A stretch of DNA of 64,000 nucleotides from Candidatus Aenigmatarchaeota archaeon (lineage in GTDB: Archaea; Aenigmatarchaeota; Aenigmatarchaeia; CG10238-14; SCSR01), in the NCBI GenBank assembly GCA_039000165.1, contig JAWBTW010000002.1:3245-67244 (forward strand). Direction: 5' to 3'. A program made the position numbers and the translations under genes. Numbering within the stretch: the first letter of the stretch is position 1; every line of letters starts with the position of its first letter. Of the stretch, positions 6,208 to 26,423 are shown piece after piece. Below the pieces are notes generated by a model, which saw nothing but the letters and a program-made list of their open reading frames with translations, did no database searches and was not told where the DNA came from.

Positions 6208-6600
6208 TTGAATTTCTTTAAAGAGCTAAGTTACGAAGAAGAATTAATTAAGTTAAGATTAACCGATAACCTAATCAAATACTATCAAGAAAACCCAGAA
6301 AAAAGAGAAGAAGTAGTTAACAAACTTAAATCGCTTAGGAATAAAATAGTGAGCGATGACGAGATTAGAAGCTTCTACAAAGAAAACTTTCTAGCATGGA
6401 TAGAAAAAAATATTAAACGCTTAGAAAACGATAAAAACTTAAGCCTTTTAGAGTTTGGCATTCCGTTCTTCACTTTTCTCCTCGGTTTTGAAACAAGAGA
6501 TAAGCTTGGGAATTTTCTCGAGAAGTATAACAGAGAAATTGCTGCAGATGTTGCTCAAACTATAAAGGAAGAATTAGGTAGAAAGTATGGACAAAGGTGA
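6208..6600 (+). CDS. hypothetical protein
   Basis: Co-directional small ORF. No motif. Confidence 0.3.
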   Translation: MNFFKELSYEEELIKLRLTDNLIKYYQENPEKREEVVNKLKSLRNKIVSDDEIRSFYKENFLAWIEKNIKRLENDKNLSLLEFGIPFFTFLLGFETRDKLGNFLEKYNREIAADVAQTIKEELGRKYGQR

Positions 6601-7051
6601 AAAGTTCGAAATCTTAATCGAAAAACTCTACAGAAAAATGGGCTATAAAGTTGAGAGAAGAAAAGTTTTAAGAGGAATGAGCGGAGCTTATCATGAAATT
6701 GACTTATACGCTTACAAAAATTTTTTGAGCAAAAAAATAGCAATAGAGTGCAAATGGAGAGAAAACTTAGAAGTTGGTAAAAAAGAACTTGCGAACTTTT
6801 TCTTAGTTTTACAAGACACAAAAATTAAAGAAGGGCATATGGTAACAAACTCTTTCTACTCTAAACAAGCAAAAGTTTTGGCAAAAAGTTATGGGATAAA
6901 ACTTATTGATGGGGGAATGCTGAAAAAACTCTTGAAGAAATATTCGCTAGATGCTGAGCTTCCCTTACAAGACTTTTCCTTCACAAAAATTTTAGAGAGT
7001 TTAATTTTTCCTGCGATTGATTTTCTTAACTACAACGGAATAATCTACTAA
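6587..7051 (+). CDS. Mrr-like restriction-endonuclease-fold (PD-(D/E)xK) domain protein
   Basis: YHEIDLYAY...IAIECKWRE matches the Mrr_cat D...(E/D)xK pattern. A paralogous domain occurs in gene 19361. Confidence 0.5.
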   Translation: MDKGEKFEILIEKLYRKMGYKVERRKVLRGMSGAYHEIDLYAYKNFLSKKIAIECKWRENLEVGKKELANFFLVLQDTKIKEGHMVTNSFYSKQAKVLAKSYGIKLIDGGMLKKLLKKYSLDAELPLQDFSFTKILESLIFPAIDFLNYNGIIY

Positions 7052-17301: not shown

Positions 17302-19200
17302 TTGATTAAAATGAGTGGAGAAATAACAAGTTTGGATTTGAGGTTTTTGGTAAAAGAGCTTAAAGAAGCCTTAGAAGGAGGAAAAATTCAAGGGATTAAA
17401 CAAGAAGGCAAAACATTTTTATTCGAAATATACAAAAAAGAAAGGTTTTTTCTTAAAGTTTTGCTTGATAAAGCAATTTATTTAACCAAAAAGAAGGAAA
17501 AATTCGAAAAAGCAACGAGTTTTTGTATGCAACTTAGAAAACATTTGTTAGGAAAAACTATAAGGAACGTTTTCCAAGTTGGTTTTGATAGAATTGTTGA
17601 GTTGGAAATTGATGGCTTAAGCTTAATTTTTGAAATTTTCGGGAATGGAAACTTAATTTTAGCAAATTCTTCTGGCTTGATAATAACTGCTTTCGAAAAA
17701 AGAGAGTGGAAAGATAGAAAAATAATACCAAAAGCTCTGTACAAGTACCCACCTTCTTGTATAAATCCTTTCGATAAAAACTTTTTTGATTTCCAAAAGT
17801 TTTTGAAAGAAAAAAAGAGCGAAATAGTCAAGGTTTTAGCTTCGGATTTTGGTTTATCAAGAAAGTACGCAGAAGAAATTTGTGAGAGATTAGGGTTTAA
17901 AAAAGAAAAAATCTGCTCAGAATTGGATCAAAGTGAAATTGATAAGCTGTTTAGATTTTTTGAAGAACTTAAAAATGTTGAGATTAAGCCACATGTTATT
18001 CTAGAAAATAAAAAAATTATCGATTTTTTTCCTTTTGAAACAGAGAAATTTAAAAAAAATGAAAAAATTTACTTTGAAAACTTTAACCAAGCTATCGAAA
18101 GTTATTTCGAATTTTCCTTAGAATCTAAAAAGTTGGAAGAAAGATTAGAAGAATTTATGAAAAAAGAAGAAAAAATTAGAAGAATTTATGAAAAACAAGT
18201 AGCTCAGCTTGAAAAATTGAAAAAAAATTACGAAAAATACAGCAAAATTGGGAAAATCCTTTACGAAAAATATCAGTACTTCGATGTTTTTCTAAAGAAA
18301 ATCGCTGAATTTATAGAAATGAAGCTAGGTTGGGAAGAGATTAAAGCAAAAATTAAGGCCTTCGATACAGAAAAAATTCTAAAAGAAATCGATGAAACCA
18401 AAGCTACCATAAACTTTTTAATCGATGGAAATGAAATCCAGCTCGATTTTAGAAAAAGTTTAGAGGAAAATGCAAACTTTTATTTTGAAAAAGCAAAAAA
18501 AGTGAAAGAAAAGATTGAAAAATTGAAAAAAGCTCTTGAAAAAATAGAAATTGAAAAAGGGAAAAAAGAGGAAGAGAAGAAAAAAGAATGGTATGAAAGG
18601 TTTAGATGGTTTATAAGTAGTGATAATTTCTTAGTTATAGCCGGTAAAGATGCTAAAACTAACGAGGAAATAGTGAAAAAATACGCTAAAGAACAAGATA
18701 TAATCCTTCATGCAGACATTCATGGAGCACCTTTTGTTCTGATAAGAAATGAAAAGAAAAAAGAAGTACCATTAGAAACTATAATGGAAGCAGCAGAGTT
18801 TGCTGCCAGCTATTCAAAAGCATGGTTTTTGGGTTTGGGTAGCACAGATGTTTTTTATGTAAAGCCTGAACAAGTTGTAAAGGAAGCTTTACCCTTAGGA
18901 AGTTTCAAGATTAGAGGAAAAAGAGAATGGCTTAAGAAGGTTCCACTCAGGGTTTCGATTGGGCTAAAAATTGAAGATGGTATAAAAATCATAGCCGGAC
19001 CAGTAACAGCAATAAAAAAACAAACTCCTTATATAGTTACTCTTTGTCCAGGAGATATTAACTCAGAGAAGTTAGCTAAGGAAATAAAGAGGGAGTTTTT
19101 ATTAAAAGTTCCTTTTGAAGTAAAAAGCTTGGTTGAAAAAATAGATCTGGAAGAAATTAAAAGGCATATTCCTTACGGAAAGGGAAAATTGGTTCTATGA
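17302..19200 (+). CDS. NFACT-family protein (archaeal Rqc2/NEMF/FbpA homologue)
   Basis: NFACT-N like N-terminus, long coiled coil, NFACT-R/DUF814 signature DIILHADIHGAPFVLIR. Confidence 0.75.
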   Translation: MIKMSGEITSLDLRFLVKELKEALEGGKIQGIKQEGKTFLFEIYKKERFFLKVLLDKAIYLTKKKEKFEKATSFCMQLRKHLLGKTIRNVFQVGFDRIVELEIDGLSLIFEIFGNGNLILANSSGLIITAFEKREWKDRKIIPKALYKYPPSCINPFDKNFFDFQKFLKEKKSEIVKVLASDFGLSRKYAEEICERLGFKKEKICSELDQSEIDKLFRFFEELKNVEIKPHVILENKKIIDFFPFETEKFKKNEKIYFENFNQAIESYFEFSLESKKLEERLEEFMKKEEKIRRIYEKQVAQLEKLKKNYEKYSKIGKILYEKYQYFDVFLKKIAEFIEMKLGWEEIKAKIKAFDTEKILKEIDETKATINFLIDGNEIQLDFRKSLEENANFYFEKAKKVKEKIEKLKKALEKIEIEKGKKEEEKKKEWYERFRWFISSDNFLVIAGKDAKTNEEIVKKYAKEQDIILHADIHGAPFVLIRNEKKKEVPLETIMEAAEFAASYSKAWFLGLGSTDVFYVKPEQVVKEALPLGSFKIRGKREWLKKVPLRVSIGLKIEDGIKIIAGPVTAIKKQTPYIVTLCPGDINSEKLAKEIKREFLLKVPFEVKSLVEKIDLEEIKRHIPYGKGKLVL

Positions 19201-19407
19201 ACTCTTCTTGGATTCTAAGAATAGAGGTCCTCTATAGCCACATTTTCTACATTCATAGACTTGACCTAACCAAGGCAAATAGTTTAACTCTTTACTTTTA
19301 CAAAAAGCACATCTCAAAACTCTTTTAAGCATATTTATTAGTTGAAAGTTAAAGATTAATTTGATGGTTTTCGTAGTAAAAGCTGATGGAAGAAAGGAAG
19401 AGTTCAA
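19195..19407 (-). CDS. small zinc-ribbon protein
   Basis: CAFCKS...CRKCGY four-Cys arrangement in 70 aa. Overlaps both neighbours, so uncertain. Confidence 0.3.
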   Translation of the reverse strand: MNSSFLPSAFTTKTIKLIFNFQLINMLKRVLRCAFCKSKELNYLPWLGQVYECRKCGYRGPLFLESKKSS

Positions 19408-20191
19408 AAAAGAAAAAGTTATAAGAACATGTTTAAGGATGGGAGCTTCTCAAGAACAGGCAGAAATAATAGCTAGAGAAATCGAGAAAAGAATCCGTGA
19501 AGAAATAGAAACAAGAAAAATCCTTAAGATGATTTTCAAGTTCTTACAAAAATTTAAACCAGAAATAAAGCATCAAATAGACTTGAGAGAGGCTATTTCT
19601 CTACTTAATCCTAAACCCGATTTTGAGAGGTTTGTTCAACTTCTTTTAAAAGAGCACGGTTATGAAGTTATTCCAAATCAAATAGTTGAAGGATATTGCG
19701 TTGACCATGAAATTGATGCTATAGCAAAAAGAGACGGTCAAACATTCTTAGTTGAGATTAAACATCATGTTAACCACCATGGTTACACTGGAAAAGATGT
19801 TTTTCTTGAGGCCCAAGCTATTCTTGAAGATTTGAAAGAAGGAAGAAAAGTAGGCAAAAATTCTTTAGATTTAACCAAAATTTTAATAGTTTGCAATACT
19901 AAATTTTCTGACCATGCAAAAAAGTACGCTTTATGCAAAGGGATTGATTTTATAGGCTGGAATTATCCAGAAGAAAAAGGCCTTGAAAGGCTTATAGAAG
20001 AGAAAAAACTTTATCCTATAACCATTCTGAAAGGCCTGGATGAAAGGACAAAAGAAAAAATAACAAACGCAGGAATAATTTTGCTCAAACAACTCATTGA
20101 AGAAAGAATAGAAGAGCTTAGAAATAAAACAAAAATACCCAAGAAAAAATTGCTAGTTTTAAGACAGAAAGCTAAGGAAATCTTAACTTGA
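19361..20191 (+). CDS. ATP-cone domain fused to Mrr-like restriction-endonuclease-fold domain
   Basis: N-terminal ATP-cone pattern (VVKADGRKEEFKKEKVIRTCLRMGASQEQAEIIAREIEKRI) followed by GYCVDHEIDAIAKRDGQTFLVEIKHH, a PD-(D/E)xK pattern. Confidence 0.55.
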   Translation: MMVFVVKADGRKEEFKKEKVIRTCLRMGASQEQAEIIAREIEKRIREEIETRKILKMIFKFLQKFKPEIKHQIDLREAISLLNPKPDFERFVQLLLKEHGYEVIPNQIVEGYCVDHEIDAIAKRDGQTFLVEIKHHVNHHGYTGKDVFLEAQAILEDLKEGRKVGKNSLDLTKILIVCNTKFSDHAKKYALCKGIDFIGWNYPEEKGLERLIEEKKLYPITILKGLDERTKEKITNAGIILLKQLIEERIEELRNKTKIPKKKLLVLRQKAKEILT

Positions 20192-20226: not shown

Positions 20227-20688
20227 ATGGAAAAAAGCTTCTATCTGGTAATTATTTTAACCATAATTATTACCGCCTTTTTTGAAATAATATTTCAACT
20301 AACCTATAAAACGAATCCTGCCATTTCTTATATACAATTCTACTCAACTTTTACGGTCCTTGGTTTTTTAGCTTCCTTTACATCTTTGAGGATGTATAAA
20401 GTTTTTTTCAAAACTAAAGAAATTTCTACAGTTAACTTTATGCTAGAACCTAAAAAGCTAAAGGAAGAAATTAAATTTTTACGTAGTTCGCTAATCGTAG
20501 TTTTTATAGGTTGGATTTGTTATGTTGTAGAAATGTGTGTAGAGAATGTTTTCCCAGAGTTATTTTTTAAGTACGAAATAGTTTTTTCAATCTTGTACAA
20601 TTCCTACATTTTTTCCTCTATTTTGCTAGCTCTTACTCTTATTGCCATCTTAAACAATTGGAGGAGGAGGATTTCGGCTTATGCTTGA
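20227..20688 (+). CDS. polytopic membrane protein
   Basis: Four to five hydrophobic helices. Confidence 0.35.
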   Translation: MEKSFYLVIILTIIITAFFEIIFQLTYKTNPAISYIQFYSTFTVLGFLASFTSLRMYKVFFKTKEISTVNFMLEPKKLKEEIKFLRSSLIVVFIGWICYVVEMCVENVFPELFFKYEIVFSILYNSYIFSSILLALTLIAILNNWRRRISAYA

Positions 20689-21124
20689 AAAAGTAAAGAG
20701 TTTTACTTTTTTCAACTTAATTTTTATGCTCGCTATTATTGTGATAAGCGCATTGATAGAATATTACAATGTTCGGTATTTTTTCAACTTCTTAGCTTCT
20801 TTTGCCATTATAATTATTTCAAGTATAGCAGCATACTTCGGTAAAAAGTTTTTAGAAAATTTTGAAAAAAATGAACAGTATGTAGCTACTCTAATATTCA
20901 TACACCCAAAGATTAGAGAAAGTTTTAAGATAATGTTTTTAGCTACTTTTGTTTTCGGAATAATGTGGAGCTTTTTACTATTGAGATTTGTTTTTTCCTT
21001 ACAGAACATTTTTCAACATTTAATTGTGATACTAGATATAGCTCACCTGTTTTCAACTTACTTTGTGCCTCTTTCTATAGCTTATTTTTTCAAAAACCTT
21101 TATGAAATAACAAAAAGTGATTGA
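20681..21124 (+). CDS. polytopic membrane protein
   Basis: Hydrophobic helices. Overlaps the upstream gene by 8 nt. Confidence 0.35.
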   Translation: MLEKVKSFTFFNLIFMLAIIVISALIEYYNVRYFFNFLASFAIIIISSIAAYFGKKFLENFEKNEQYVATLIFIHPKIRESFKIMFLATFVFGIMWSFLLLRFVFSLQNIFQHLIVILDIAHLFSTYFVPLSIAYFFKNLYEITKSD

Positions 21125-21496
21125 ATGGAATTAAAAAGCGAATTAGAAGGGGTGTTAAAGGAAATAAAAATGATAGAAGGAGTTAGAGGAGCAATAATAG
21201 CTAAAAATGATGGACTACTGATAGCTTCTTACCTTCCTTCTGGTCTTAACGCTAAGCTTCTAGCTGCTTTGGCTGCAGCAATAACAAAAAGCTCTTTCGT
21301 ATCGACAAAAGAACTTGGAATGGGAAGCTTTACTCATACAATAGTAAAAGCTTCTAACGGTTATTATGTGTGTTTCCCTGTTGATAGCGAGATGATTTTA
21401 GCATGTTTACTTGAAAAAGATGCTAACTTAGGGATGGTTTTGATAAAGATGGAAAAGAGTATAAAGGAAGTGGTGAATGTACTAAGAAGTATTTAA
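21125..21496 (+). CDS. Roadblock/LC7 domain protein
   Basis: GVRGAIIAKNDGLLIAS...AALAAAI is the typical Roadblock/LC7 pattern. 123 aa. Confidence 0.6.
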   Translation: MELKSELEGVLKEIKMIEGVRGAIIAKNDGLLIASYLPSGLNAKLLAALAAAITKSSFVSTKELGMGSFTHTIVKASNGYYVCFPVDSEMILACLLEKDANLGMVLIKMEKSIKEVVNVLRSI

Positions 21497-26018: not shown

Positions 26019-26423
26019 ATGGAAGAACTTGAGATGATACTTAAGTTGCTTCTCTCTGTTTTTCTTGGTAGTTTGATTGGTTATGAAAGACAAATAAGGG
26101 CAAAGCCTGCAGGTTTAAGAACTCATATGCTGATTTGTTTGGGTTCAACTCTTTTAACGATAATGTCTTTAACTGCTTTTCCTAATGCTGACACTTCAAG
26201 AATGGCAGCTTATATAATAGTTGGAATAGGTTTTATCGGTGGTGGCACAATTTTCCAGTTCAAAGATAAGGTTATTGGTCTAACCACAGCAGCCTCTTTA
26301 TGGGTTGTTGCTTCGATAGGAATAGCTGTAGGTGTGGGTTATTATTTGTTAGCAAGTATATCCACTTTGATAGTTTACATAATTCTAAGACTTAGTGTGA
26401 TAGAAAACGGAATAAAAGGATAA
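26019..26423 (+). CDS. mgtC: MgtC/SapB family membrane protein
   Basis: LLLSVFLGSLIGYERQ...AGLRTHMLICLGSTL is the conserved MgtC N-terminal signature. Confidence 0.7.
   Translation: MEELEMILKLLLSVFLGSLIGYERQIRAKPAGLRTHMLICLGSTLLTIMSLTAFPNADTSRMAAYIIVGIGFIGGGTIFQFKDKVIGLTTAASLWVVASIGIAVGVGYYLLASISTLIVYIILRLSVIENGIKG

What the first reader, a model, noticed from the sequence alone, without database searches (positions are those of the whole stretch)
19361..20191. ATP-cone domain fused to an Mrr-like PD-(D/E)xK nuclease domain
The ATP-cone is an allosteric nucleotide-sensing module (NrdR, RNR).
- Here it is followed by a domain whose HEID...EIK motif pattern matches Mrr-type restriction endonucleases. 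The same domain stands alone in gene 6587-7051.
- A nucleotide-regulated nuclease could be a defence or dNTP-pool-responsive effector.
- This fusion is uncommon.
Basis: partly seen in the sequence, partly recalled or inferred. Interest (0 to 1): 0.5.

Follow-up and report, generated by a model that had tools for sequence, protein, structure and literature searches.

The report
ATP-cone-gated AF1548-family nuclease gene
The gene is real and encodes a three-part protein (a nucleotide-sensing ATP-cone, an intact cutting domain and a DNA-binding tail) that belongs to a very large family found in archaea and bacteria; the family is catalogued but has never been tested, and it looks like a housekeeping or stress enzyme rather than an anti-virus weapon.

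Summary
**Observation confirmed.** Window 19361/19364-20191 (+) encodes a 275/276-aa protein. All three of its domains score above Pfam's thresholds:
- ATP-cone, aa 4-62
- Mrr_cat PD-(D/E)xK nuclease, aa 86-192

**Conservation.** Catalytic D119, E132 and K134 are invariant in 151/151 sequences. Cone residues K7, G10, K19 and K/R76 are nearly invariant.

**The fusion is not uncommon.** 130 of the 150 best 50%-identity cluster representatives carry all three domains. A profile search finds at least 2449 clusters in DPANN archaea, CPR bacteria, Bacteroidota, Chlamydiota and Nitrosopumilaceae.

**A defence role is not supported.** There is no PADLOC hit and no phage hit. The neighbours are housekeeping genes and GC content is uniform.

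**Context.** In one bacterial subfamily the gene sits in co-directional stress islands. In about half of the loci it lies directly upstream of a beta-CASP nuclease, often followed by an AMP-phosphorylase-like enzyme and PRPP synthetase.

**Best reading.** It is an adenine-nucleotide-gated DNA endonuclease for nucleic-acid turnover or salvage. The family is catalogued but biochemically uncharacterised.

The parts
19364..20191 (+). Complete gene for the 275-aa ATP-cone / PD-(D/E)xK / HhH protein. The mechanical ORF starts one codon earlier, at TTG 19361. The stop codon TGA is at 20189-20191.
   Evidence: ORF list; 100% identical to GenBank protein P0001, 275 aa; homologue N-termini align to the ATG start; codons checked.
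19367..19600 (+). ATP-cone domain, aa 3-80: a beta-hairpin (E4-6, E12-14) followed by helices 17-26, 31-44, 51-62 and 67-80. Candidate nucleotide-binding residues are K7 (19379-19381), K19 (19415-19417), T51 (19511-19513) and R76 (19586-19588).
19610..19954 (+). PD-(D/E)xK (Mrr_cat-type) nuclease core, aa 84-198. Catalytic residues are E89 (19625-19627), D119 (19715-19717), E132 (19754-19756) and K134 (19760-19762). H136 is conserved, and this clade has a His-rich KHHxxHH stretch.
19955..20011 (+). Conserved connector, aa 199-217 (GW.YP....L...IE...LY), with invariant W200. The conserved motif continues with P219 at the start of the next segment.
   Evidence: Invariant columns W200 and P219 across 127 divergent sequences.
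20012..20185 (+). AF1548-like C-terminal helix-hairpin-helix domain, aa 218-275. It is a probable DNA binder without sequence specificity.

Best explanation
The gene encodes a stand-alone, constitutively maintained member of the AF1548 nuclease family.

**Shown**
- An intact PD-(D/E)xK active site (E89, D119, E132, K134).
- A RAD51-N-like HhH domain at the C-terminus.
- A complete ATP-cone at the N-terminus. It joins the first catalytic helix through a short, highly conserved linker (L..P.PDFE; LGP.G.FE in other clades).

**Inferred mechanism**
- The HhH domain holds DNA without sequence specificity.
- The nuclease cuts DNA with Mg2+.
- The cone binds ATP, dATP or ADP. As in ribonucleotide reductases and NrdR, it converts the adenine-nucleotide state into a change of oligomeric state or domain packing that switches cleavage on or off.

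**Inferred role**
The likely role is nucleic-acid turnover and nucleotide or pentose salvage tied to energy or nucleotide stress, not restriction of foreign DNA.

**How sure each layer is**
- Architecture: about 0.95.
- Active nuclease: about 0.8.
- Cone binds an adenine nucleotide and gates activity: about 0.65.
- Salvage or stress role: about 0.35.
For: **Architecture and fold**
-. pTM of 0.89 for a three-domain chain suggests the domains pack rigidly.

**Active site and cone ligands under purifying selection**
- Across 26-55% identical sequences.

**Three-domain form is the family norm**
- 130 of 150 representatives.

**Distribution**
- Small-genome DPANN archaea and CPR bacteria (Aenigmatarchaeota, Nealsonbacteria, Daviesbacteria), Bacteroidota, a Chlamydiota plasmid and Nitrosopumilaceae.
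- DPANN and CPR organisms are generally held to depend on nucleotide salvage (background knowledge).

**Operon evidence in the bacterial-type subfamily**
- 31 of 59 loci with enough downstream sequence carry a beta-CASP/RMMBL nuclease downstream on the same strand, usually directly adjacent.
- It is followed in 13 loci by an archaeal-type nucleoside/AMP-phosphorylase-like enzyme (TIGR02645 589 bits > 434.6; AMP_phos 480 bits, below its cut-off) and in 10 loci by PRPP synthetase.
- The surrounding islands contain Usp, PFK, 2-hydroxyacid dehydrogenase, Hsp20, MgtC and P-type ATPases.

**Housekeeping setting in the window**
- Neighbours are ScpB, dCMP deaminase, NFACT, EndoIII, Lhr, thymidylate kinase, NUDIX and FtsZ. 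GC content is uniform.
Against: - No biochemical data exist for any member. AF1548 is only a structural-genomics entry.
- The beta-CASP / phosphorylase / PRPP-synthetase partners are absent from the window and from all the related DPANN archaeal loci tested. The salvage role is therefore transferred from a roughly 30-35% identical subfamily.
- The arginine of the RNR/NrdR 'KR' motif is not conserved here (A8). The cone scores only just above Pfam's threshold, so a non-canonical ligand or a purely structural role is possible.
- The ATP-cone-less AF1548-type members (9 of 150 representatives) show that the nuclease can exist without the cone.
- Contexts in archaea and CPR bacteria are variable and give no consistent partner.
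- A beta-CASP/RMMBL neighbour could point to RNA rather than DNA as the substrate.
Confidence: 0.45

Rival explanations
1. It is a DNA-repair or recombination nuclease. On this reading the enzyme is structure-specific (flaps, junctions or damaged DNA), the RAD51-N-like HhH domain recruits it to DNA, and the cone restricts cutting to cells with adequate ATP or a suitable dATP level.
For: - In Aenigmatarchaeota-like genomes the gene keeps company with ScpB, an EndoIII-type HhH-GPD glycosylase, an HTH_45 protein and an Lhr helicase (window, L011, L012).
- A DNA-alkylation-repair gene and NUDIX lie near it in L097.
- The fold resembles NucS/EndoMS, Hjc and Bax1.
- The C-domain superposes on RAD51-family N-domains.
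- JGI labels members 'Holliday junction resolvase-like'.
Against: - The synteny is seen only among proteins at least 57% identical to the query, so it may be inherited gene order. It is absent in L010, L097, L099, L100 and L101.
- None of the neighbours overlaps the gene in the same direction or is translationally coupled to it.
- Bacterial operons point to catabolic enzymes, not repair enzymes.
Confidence: 0.25
2. It is an anti-virus or anti-plasmid effector. On this reading it is a Type IV-like or abortive-infection nuclease whose cone senses the nucleotide-pool disturbance caused by infection (for example dATP or ATP depletion) and releases indiscriminate DNA cleavage.
For: - The nuclease core is of the Mrr_cat type and resembles AspBHI/MspJI, FokI, Shedu SduA and the ligand-gated Can2, Card1 and NucC nucleases.
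- Some bacterial copies lie on plasmids or in accessory islands.
- In L010 the gene is next to HEPN/nucleotidyltransferase and AbiEii modules.
Against: - No PADLOC model matches, whereas the stand-alone Mrr_cat gene in the same window does match.
- No homologue was found in the phage collection.
- There is no methyl-DNA reader or Mrr_N domain.
- Length, domain order and motifs are the same across thousands of clusters. Such uniformity is thought to be untypical of defence genes (background knowledge).
- It occurs in minimal CPR genomes, in one case next to dnaA.
- The window neighbourhood is housekeeping and compositionally uniform.
Confidence: 0.1
3. It is a nucleotide-responsive DNA-binding regulator, functionally like NrdR. 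On this reading the PD-(D/E)xK fold and HhH domain bind DNA, and the cone controls occupancy, with little or no cleavage in vivo.
For: - The cone is structurally closest to NrdR cones.
- PD-(D/E)xK folds are sometimes recruited as non-catalytic DNA binders (background knowledge).
- A conserved small zinc-ribbon gene lies divergently adjacent in close relatives. Zinc ribbon plus cone is the NrdR recipe.
Against: - All four catalytic residues are invariant over the whole family. This is not expected for a non-enzymatic binder.
- The NrdR model TIGR00244 scores 15.9 bits against a cut-off of 124.65.
- The zinc-ribbon gene is on the opposite strand. It is adjacent only in the closest relatives and lies about 1.9 kb away in L012.
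Confidence: 0.05

Closest known systems
AF1548 of Archaeoglobus fulgidus (PDB 1Y88; Pfam PF04471 + PF22357; COG1787 group)
   Same: - The same D...ExK residues were predicted catalytic (PMC1821046, PMC1874628).
   Different: - AF1548 as crystallised has no ATP-cone; the alignment starts at query residue 91.
- The window protein and 87% of the best cluster representatives carry the cone.
- AF1548 has no assigned function, so membership explains the fold but not the role.
ATP-cone regulatory domains of NrdR and of ribonucleotide reductases (PF03477)
   Same: - Same fold, and same conserved Lys/Gly/Lys/Thr pattern at the start of the hairpin and helices.
- In RNR and NrdR the cone binds ATP/dATP and acts through oligomerisation (background knowledge; PMC4390871 for RNR).
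   Different: - The output module is a nuclease, not a reductase or a zinc-ribbon repressor.
- The second residue of the 'KR' pair is not conserved.
- Ligand and effect are untested.
- No paper found in the searchable library describes a cone controlling a nuclease.
Mrr and other Type IV / Mrr_cat restriction nucleases
   Same: They share the Mrr_cat catalytic domain family, and GenBank uses the label 'restriction endonuclease'.
   Different: - There is no N-terminal Mrr_N-type DNA reader.
- No defence-model hit and no defence neighbourhood.
- The Mrr_cat score is weak (31.9 bits) compared with the genuine Mrr-like gene at 6587-7051 (72.4 bits).
Ligand-gated PD-(D/E)xK nucleases of CRISPR/CBASS signalling (Can2, Card1, Cdn1, NucC)
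   Different: - The sensor is an ATP-cone rather than a CARF domain or a cA3 pocket.
- The presumed ligand is a bulk metabolite (ATP/dATP) rather than a dedicated second messenger.
- There are no CRISPR or CBASS genes nearby.

Membership tests
ATP-cone (PF03477) | Sequence reaches the curated Pfam gathering score | tested here: met
   27.4 bits against 25.8 for the window protein. Distant homologues score 29.5 (L009) and 32.5 (L008).
ATP-cone (PF03477) | Beta-hairpin followed by a four-helix bundle, superposable on solved cones | tested here: met
   [not shown]
ATP-cone (PF03477) | Conserved basic residues that contact nucleotide phosphates | tested here: inconclusive
   K7, K19 and K/R76 are nearly invariant. 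The Arg after K7 is not conserved. The mapping to RNR/NrdR ligand residues rests on my recollection of those structures, not on a superposition made here.
ATP-cone (PF03477) | Binds ATP/dATP and changes activity or oligomeric state | not testable with these tools
   This needs binding and activity assays.
PD-(D/E)xK / Mrr_cat (PF04471) | Pfam gathering score reached, and E...D...(D/E)xK motif present and conserved | tested here: met
   31.9 bits against 21. E89 in 147/148 sequences; D119, E132 and K134 in 151/151.
PD-(D/E)xK / Mrr_cat (PF04471) | Alpha-beta-beta-beta-alpha-beta core fold | tested here: met
   [not shown]
Mrr proper (Type IV methyl-dependent restriction enzyme) | N-terminal winged-helix DNA-reader domain (Mrr_N) in front of Mrr_cat | tested here: not met
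   The N-terminus is an ATP-cone and there is no Mrr_N match. No mREase_IV match in PADLOC.
AF1548-like proteins (1Y88; PF22357 C-domain) | Nuclease core plus AF1548-type C-terminal domain, alignable end to end with 1Y88 | tested here: met
   [not shown]
Known anti-phage defence systems (PADLOC-DB 2.0) | Match to a defence-protein model and/or placement among defence genes | tested here: not met
   No family at E <= 0.1. The window neighbours are housekeeping genes. No phage homologues.
NrdR | Zinc ribbon fused N-terminally to the ATP-cone; TIGR00244 equivalog score | tested here: not met
   TIGR00244 scores 15.9 bits against a cut-off of 124.65. There is no zinc ribbon in this polypeptide.

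The most novel reading that the evidence does not exclude
The family could be the first case of an ATP-cone acting as an energy-charge or dATP switch on a nuclease. On this reading it opens a regulated 'self-digestion' route: DNA or RNA is cut by the nuclease and a beta-CASP enzyme, then passed to an AMP-phosphorylase-like enzyme and PRPP synthetase, so that cells recycle nucleic acid into nucleotides or pentose phosphates during starvation, hypoxia or dormancy. In DPANN archaea and CPR bacteria, which are thought to lack de novo nucleotide synthesis, the stand-alone enzyme would then be a core gatekeeper of nucleotide supply.
Probability: 0.2. Interest if true: 0.7.

Novelty: new variant of a known kind. 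Interest (0 to 1): 0.4.

Why it matters
**What is known about the parts.** ATP-cones are understood only as regulators of ribonucleotide reductase and of its repressor NrdR. PD-(D/E)xK nucleases gated by small molecules are known only from CRISPR and CBASS signalling.

**What this family would add.** A cone-gated nuclease would couple the cell's adenine-nucleotide state directly to nucleic-acid cleavage.

**Why it is worth testing.**
- The family is large: thousands of 90%-identity clusters.
- Its architecture is strictly conserved.
- It is common in the reduced genomes of DPANN archaea and CPR bacteria.
- No paper found in the searchable library describes its function.
- A homologue structure exists (1Y88), and culturable carriers exist (Pontibacter actiniarum, Criblamydia sequanensis), so the hypothesis is directly testable.

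**Limits.** This particular gene is an ordinary, already deposited member. The domain combination is already recorded in Pfam and GenBank annotation.

Tried and rejected
1. **Genome-contig scan.** I ran it with the single protein. An alignment query would have been the better choice.
2. **Alignments A3 and A4.** With 127 and 58 sequences they were too divergent for the search for related loci. Only the bacterial-type subfamily A5 could be scanned. The broad context survey therefore covers that subfamily and not the DPANN clade.
3. **afdb50 fold library.** It was unavailable.
4. **The listing of cluster members.** It gave almost no taxonomy.
5. **Literature.** Seven searches found nothing on a cone-nuclease fusion (AF1548; ATP-cone with endonuclease, restriction endonuclease, nuclease plus defense, universal stress protein or Mrr; and the GenBank product name). 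A search for the PDB code 1y88 led to papers that, like the one read, treat AF1548 only as a predicted nuclease.
6. **Bacterial operon partners in the archaeon.** tblastn for beta-CASP, TP-family, PRPP synthetase, Usp, P-type ATPase and others found nothing in the window or in L004-L007 and L010-L012 at E <= 1e-3.
7. **A downstream operon.** I considered that the tightly packed downstream genes (two membrane proteins and a Roadblock/LC7 protein, 20227-21496) form an operon with the nuclease. I rejected this because the cassette is missing in the close relatives L004 and L007, while the nuclease and its flanks remain.
8. **A defence island.** I considered and rejected this.
9. **A recent duplicate.** I considered that gene 6587-7051 is a recent duplicate of the nuclease domain. 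I rejected this because identity is only 25% and the protein belongs to a different subfamily.

Full report
**1. What is in the sequence**

Window 19361-20191 (+) is an uninterrupted ORF of 276 codons that starts with TTG. The second codon is ATG. The 275-aa product from that ATG is 100% identical to a GenBank protein from a Candidatus Aenigmatarchaeota metagenome-assembled genome, labelled 'restriction endonuclease' (P0001). The window is therefore DNA of a DPANN archaeon with about 30% G+C.

Pfam finds three domains, each above its curated threshold:
- ATP-cone, aa 4-62: 27.4 bits against 25.8.
- Mrr_cat, aa 86-192: 31.9 bits against 21.
- AF1548-like_C, aa 218-275: 32.2 bits against 23.9.

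The third domain was missed.

**2. Is the domain assignment solid?**

The region from aa 91 to 272 matches the crystal-structure protein AF1548 (PDB 1Y88) with E = 4.7e-33.

An AlphaFold2 model built from 60 homologues is very confident, with mean pLDDT 95.7 and pTM 0.89. Its matches in the PDB are as follows.
- Catalytic core: it resembles AspBHI/MspJI, NucS, FokI, Can2, Card1 and Hjc.

A profile of only the first 84 residues of 44 divergent family members finds NrdR (E = 4e-4) and RNR cones among natural PDB proteins. The better-scoring hits in that search are designed helical repeats and are spurious.

**3. Conservation**

I examined the query plus the 150 best representatives of 50%-identity clusters, which are 26-56% identical to the query.
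- Catalytic residues: D119, E132 and K134 are present in 151/151 sequences and E89 in 147/148.
- Cone residues: K7 is present in 132/140, G10 in 135/140, K19 in 133/140 (the other 7 are R), T/S51 in 140/142 and K/R76 in 144/144.
- The linker between the last cone helix and the first catalytic helix (P84, F88, E89) is itself nearly invariant.

From memory of RNR and NrdR structures, K7, K19 and K/R76 correspond to phosphate-binding positions, and the Arg that follows the first Lys is not kept here. That mapping is a lead, not a test.

**4. How common is the fusion?**

It is very common.
- The word-indexed search found 831 90%-identity clusters. The top 120 are all 256-291 aa long (all but one 273-291) and at least 55% identical to the query.
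- The exhaustive search of 50%-identity representatives found 964 hits at E <= 1e-3 and 214 at E <= 1e-30.
- Of the best 150 representatives, 130 have all three domains and 9 lack the cone (the AF1548 type). The rest look truncated.
- A profile search returned at least 2449 clusters at E <= 1e-10 among only 8000 scored candidates.

Source names include Aenigmatarchaeota, Candidatus Nealsonbacteria and Daviesbacteria (CPR), Bacteroidota and Bacteroidia. Other carriers are a Nitrosopumilaceae MAG, a 'Robiginitalea' MAG, and plasmids of Pontibacter actiniarum and Criblamydia sequanensis, where the protein is annotated 'ATP cone domain-containing protein'.

The statement that the fusion is uncommon is therefore not supported. 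The combination is already catalogued, but nothing in the searchable literature describes it. AF1548 itself appears only as a predicted nuclease with catalytic D38, E51 and K53 (PMC1821046, PMC1874628, PMC3424549).

**5. Genomic context in the window and in archaeal relatives**

The gene lies among housekeeping genes:
- Upstream: ScpB, dCMP deaminase and NFACT.
- Downstream: two small membrane proteins, Roadblock/LC7, an EndoIII-type glycosylase, an HTH_45 protein, an Lhr helicase, MgtC, thymidylate kinase, NUDIX, PHP and FtsZ.

G+C content is flat across the region.

The membrane-protein/Roadblock cassette is absent in two close relatives (L004, L007), although the nuclease and its flanks remain. 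It is therefore not a functional partner.

The order ScpB ... nuclease ... EndoIII - HTH_45 - Lhr recurs in L011. In L012 ScpB, the nuclease, EndoIII and Lhr recur in the same order without HTH_45. Both proteins are 57-59% identical to the query. That order is not seen in L010, L097, L099, L100 or the CPR locus L101, where the gene follows dnaA.

No PADLOC model matches the protein, and tblastn finds no homologue in 50,697 phage records.

**6. Genomic context in the bacterial-type subfamily**

Clustering puts the Pontibacter, Criblamydia, 'Robiginitalea' and Nitrosopumilaceae proteins in one subfamily. I analysed 80 loci.

The flanking genes are almost all co-directional with the nuclease. The partners found by tblastn are counted; the others are from ORF clustering. 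All are annotated.

| Neighbour | Count |
|---|---|
| beta-CASP/RMMBL metallo-nuclease downstream on the same strand | 31 of the 59 loci with at least 1.2 kb downstream; 28 of these within about 550 nt by tblastn coordinates |
| Usp gene upstream | 24 of 57 loci |
| Archaeal-type nucleoside/AMP-phosphorylase-like protein (TIGR02645, 589 bits > 434.6) | 13 loci |
| PRPP synthetase | 10 loci |
| P-type ATPases | 17 loci |
| 2-hydroxyacid dehydrogenase | 9 loci |
| PFK | 8 loci |
| MgtC/DUF4010 | 8 loci |
| Hsp20 | 6 loci |

The same four-gene run, nuclease - beta-CASP - phosphorylase - PRPP synthetase, is annotated on both plasmids. In L098 a P-type ATPase is inserted into the run.

This looks like an energy, hypoxia or metal stress island that contains a module for breaking down nucleic acid and recycling nucleotides. 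None of these partners is present in the window or in the DPANN archaeal loci tested.

**7. Interpretation**

What is shown:
- A complete cone.
- A catalytically intact PD-(D/E)xK core.
- A RAD51-N-like HhH domain.
- Rigid predicted packing of the domains.
- Family-wide purifying selection on both the catalytic and the cone residues.

What is inferred:
- The HhH domain tethers the enzyme to DNA.
- The cone reads ATP, dATP or ADP and gates cleavage, most probably through oligomerisation as in RNR and NrdR.

For the physiological role, I favour regulated nucleic-acid turnover or salvage under nucleotide or energy stress. The reasons are the bacterial operons and the enrichment in salvage-dependent DPANN and CPR lineages.

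A repair or recombination role is the main rival, on the strength of the local synteny with EndoIII, Lhr and ScpB. Defence, and an NrdR-like non-catalytic regulator, are less likely for the reasons given under the rival explanations.

**8. Comparison with what is known, and novelty**

The protein is a member of the AF1548-like branch of Mrr_cat nucleases, and all tested membership features were met. It also carries a bona fide ATP-cone.

It is not Mrr proper, because it has no Mrr_N reader domain. It is not NrdR. It does not belong to any PADLOC defence family.

Functionally, the nearest analogies are the cone-regulated RNR and NrdR, and the ligand-gated nucleases Can2, Card1 and NucC.

This gene is an ordinary, already deposited member. 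The family as a whole is a known sensor joined to a known effector in a pairing that has not been studied. I therefore rate it 'new variant of a known kind', with moderate interest (0.4).

Noticed in passing
window 19195-19332 (- strand): An unannotated 45-aa zinc-ribbon ORF (CxxC...CxxC) lies in the 160-nt gap between NFACT and the nuclease gene and is transcribed divergently from the nuclease. It is conserved at 63-86% identity, in the same adjacent divergent position, in L004-L007. L012 also has a copy (59% identity, about 1.9 kb away, called as a gene there). It is probably a missed small gene. Zinc ribbon plus ATP-cone is the NrdR recipe, which may or may not be a coincidence.
   Followed up: partly
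window 6587-7051 (+): This is a stand-alone 154-aa Mrr_cat protein (72.4 bits). It matches the PADLOC ZorD nuclease module and Type IV mREase models. Its start overlaps the end of the upstream unknown ORF 6208-6600. This gene, not the target, is the defence-like nuclease of the window. Its partners were not examined.
   Followed up: partly
window 26034-26423 (+); L005, L007, L011, L100; nine bacterial loci (for example L029 2970-4310): An MgtC-family gene, fused to DUF4010 at least in L029 and L011, lies within about 8 kb of the ATP-cone nuclease in 14 of 99 loci from both domains of life. Cation or heavy-metal P-type ATPases lie nearby in 17 of 80 bacterial-type loci. A possible link to Mg2+/ATP homeostasis is unexplained.
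   Followed up: partly
L013 (Pontibacter plasmid NZ_CP021236) 1972-6597; L014 (Criblamydia plasmid NZ_LK031773) 6995-11602; L098 6001-12855: A conserved co-directional run is present: ATP-cone nuclease, beta-CASP MBL, archaeal-type thymidine/AMP-phosphorylase-like protein and PRPP synthetase. It sits inside islands with Usp, PFK, lactate-dehydrogenase-like, phosphoketolase, acetate kinase, glycogen phosphorylase and Hsp20 genes. It looks like an undescribed stress or dormancy nucleic-acid recycling module.
   Followed up: partly
L013 2829-4196: The beta-CASP neighbour scores best against the NCBIfam model for the type VII CRISPR protein Cas14 (376 bits, below the 800-bit cut-off) and next against aCPSF1. 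It is therefore an aCPSF1/Cas14-like ribonuclease-type beta-CASP outside any CRISPR context.
   Followed up: no
window 20227-21496 (+): A cassette of two small multi-pass membrane proteins plus a Roadblock/LC7 protein is present in the window, L005 and L006. It is absent at the same site in L004 and L007. This is a recent insertion or deletion between close Aenigmatarchaeota relatives.
   Followed up: yes
L009 3815-4645 (Nitrosopumilaceae MAG): The thaumarchaeal copy clusters with the bacterial-type subfamily rather than with the DPANN archaeal copies. It is flanked by P-type ATPases, Hsp20 and a PHA-synthase-like gene. This suggests transfer of the stress-island version between domains.
   Followed up: no
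L012 12332-12837: The Lhr-type helicase downstream of the nuclease in this relative carries an intein (the Intein_splicing Pfam match lies between the DEAD and Helicase_C matches).
   Followed up: no
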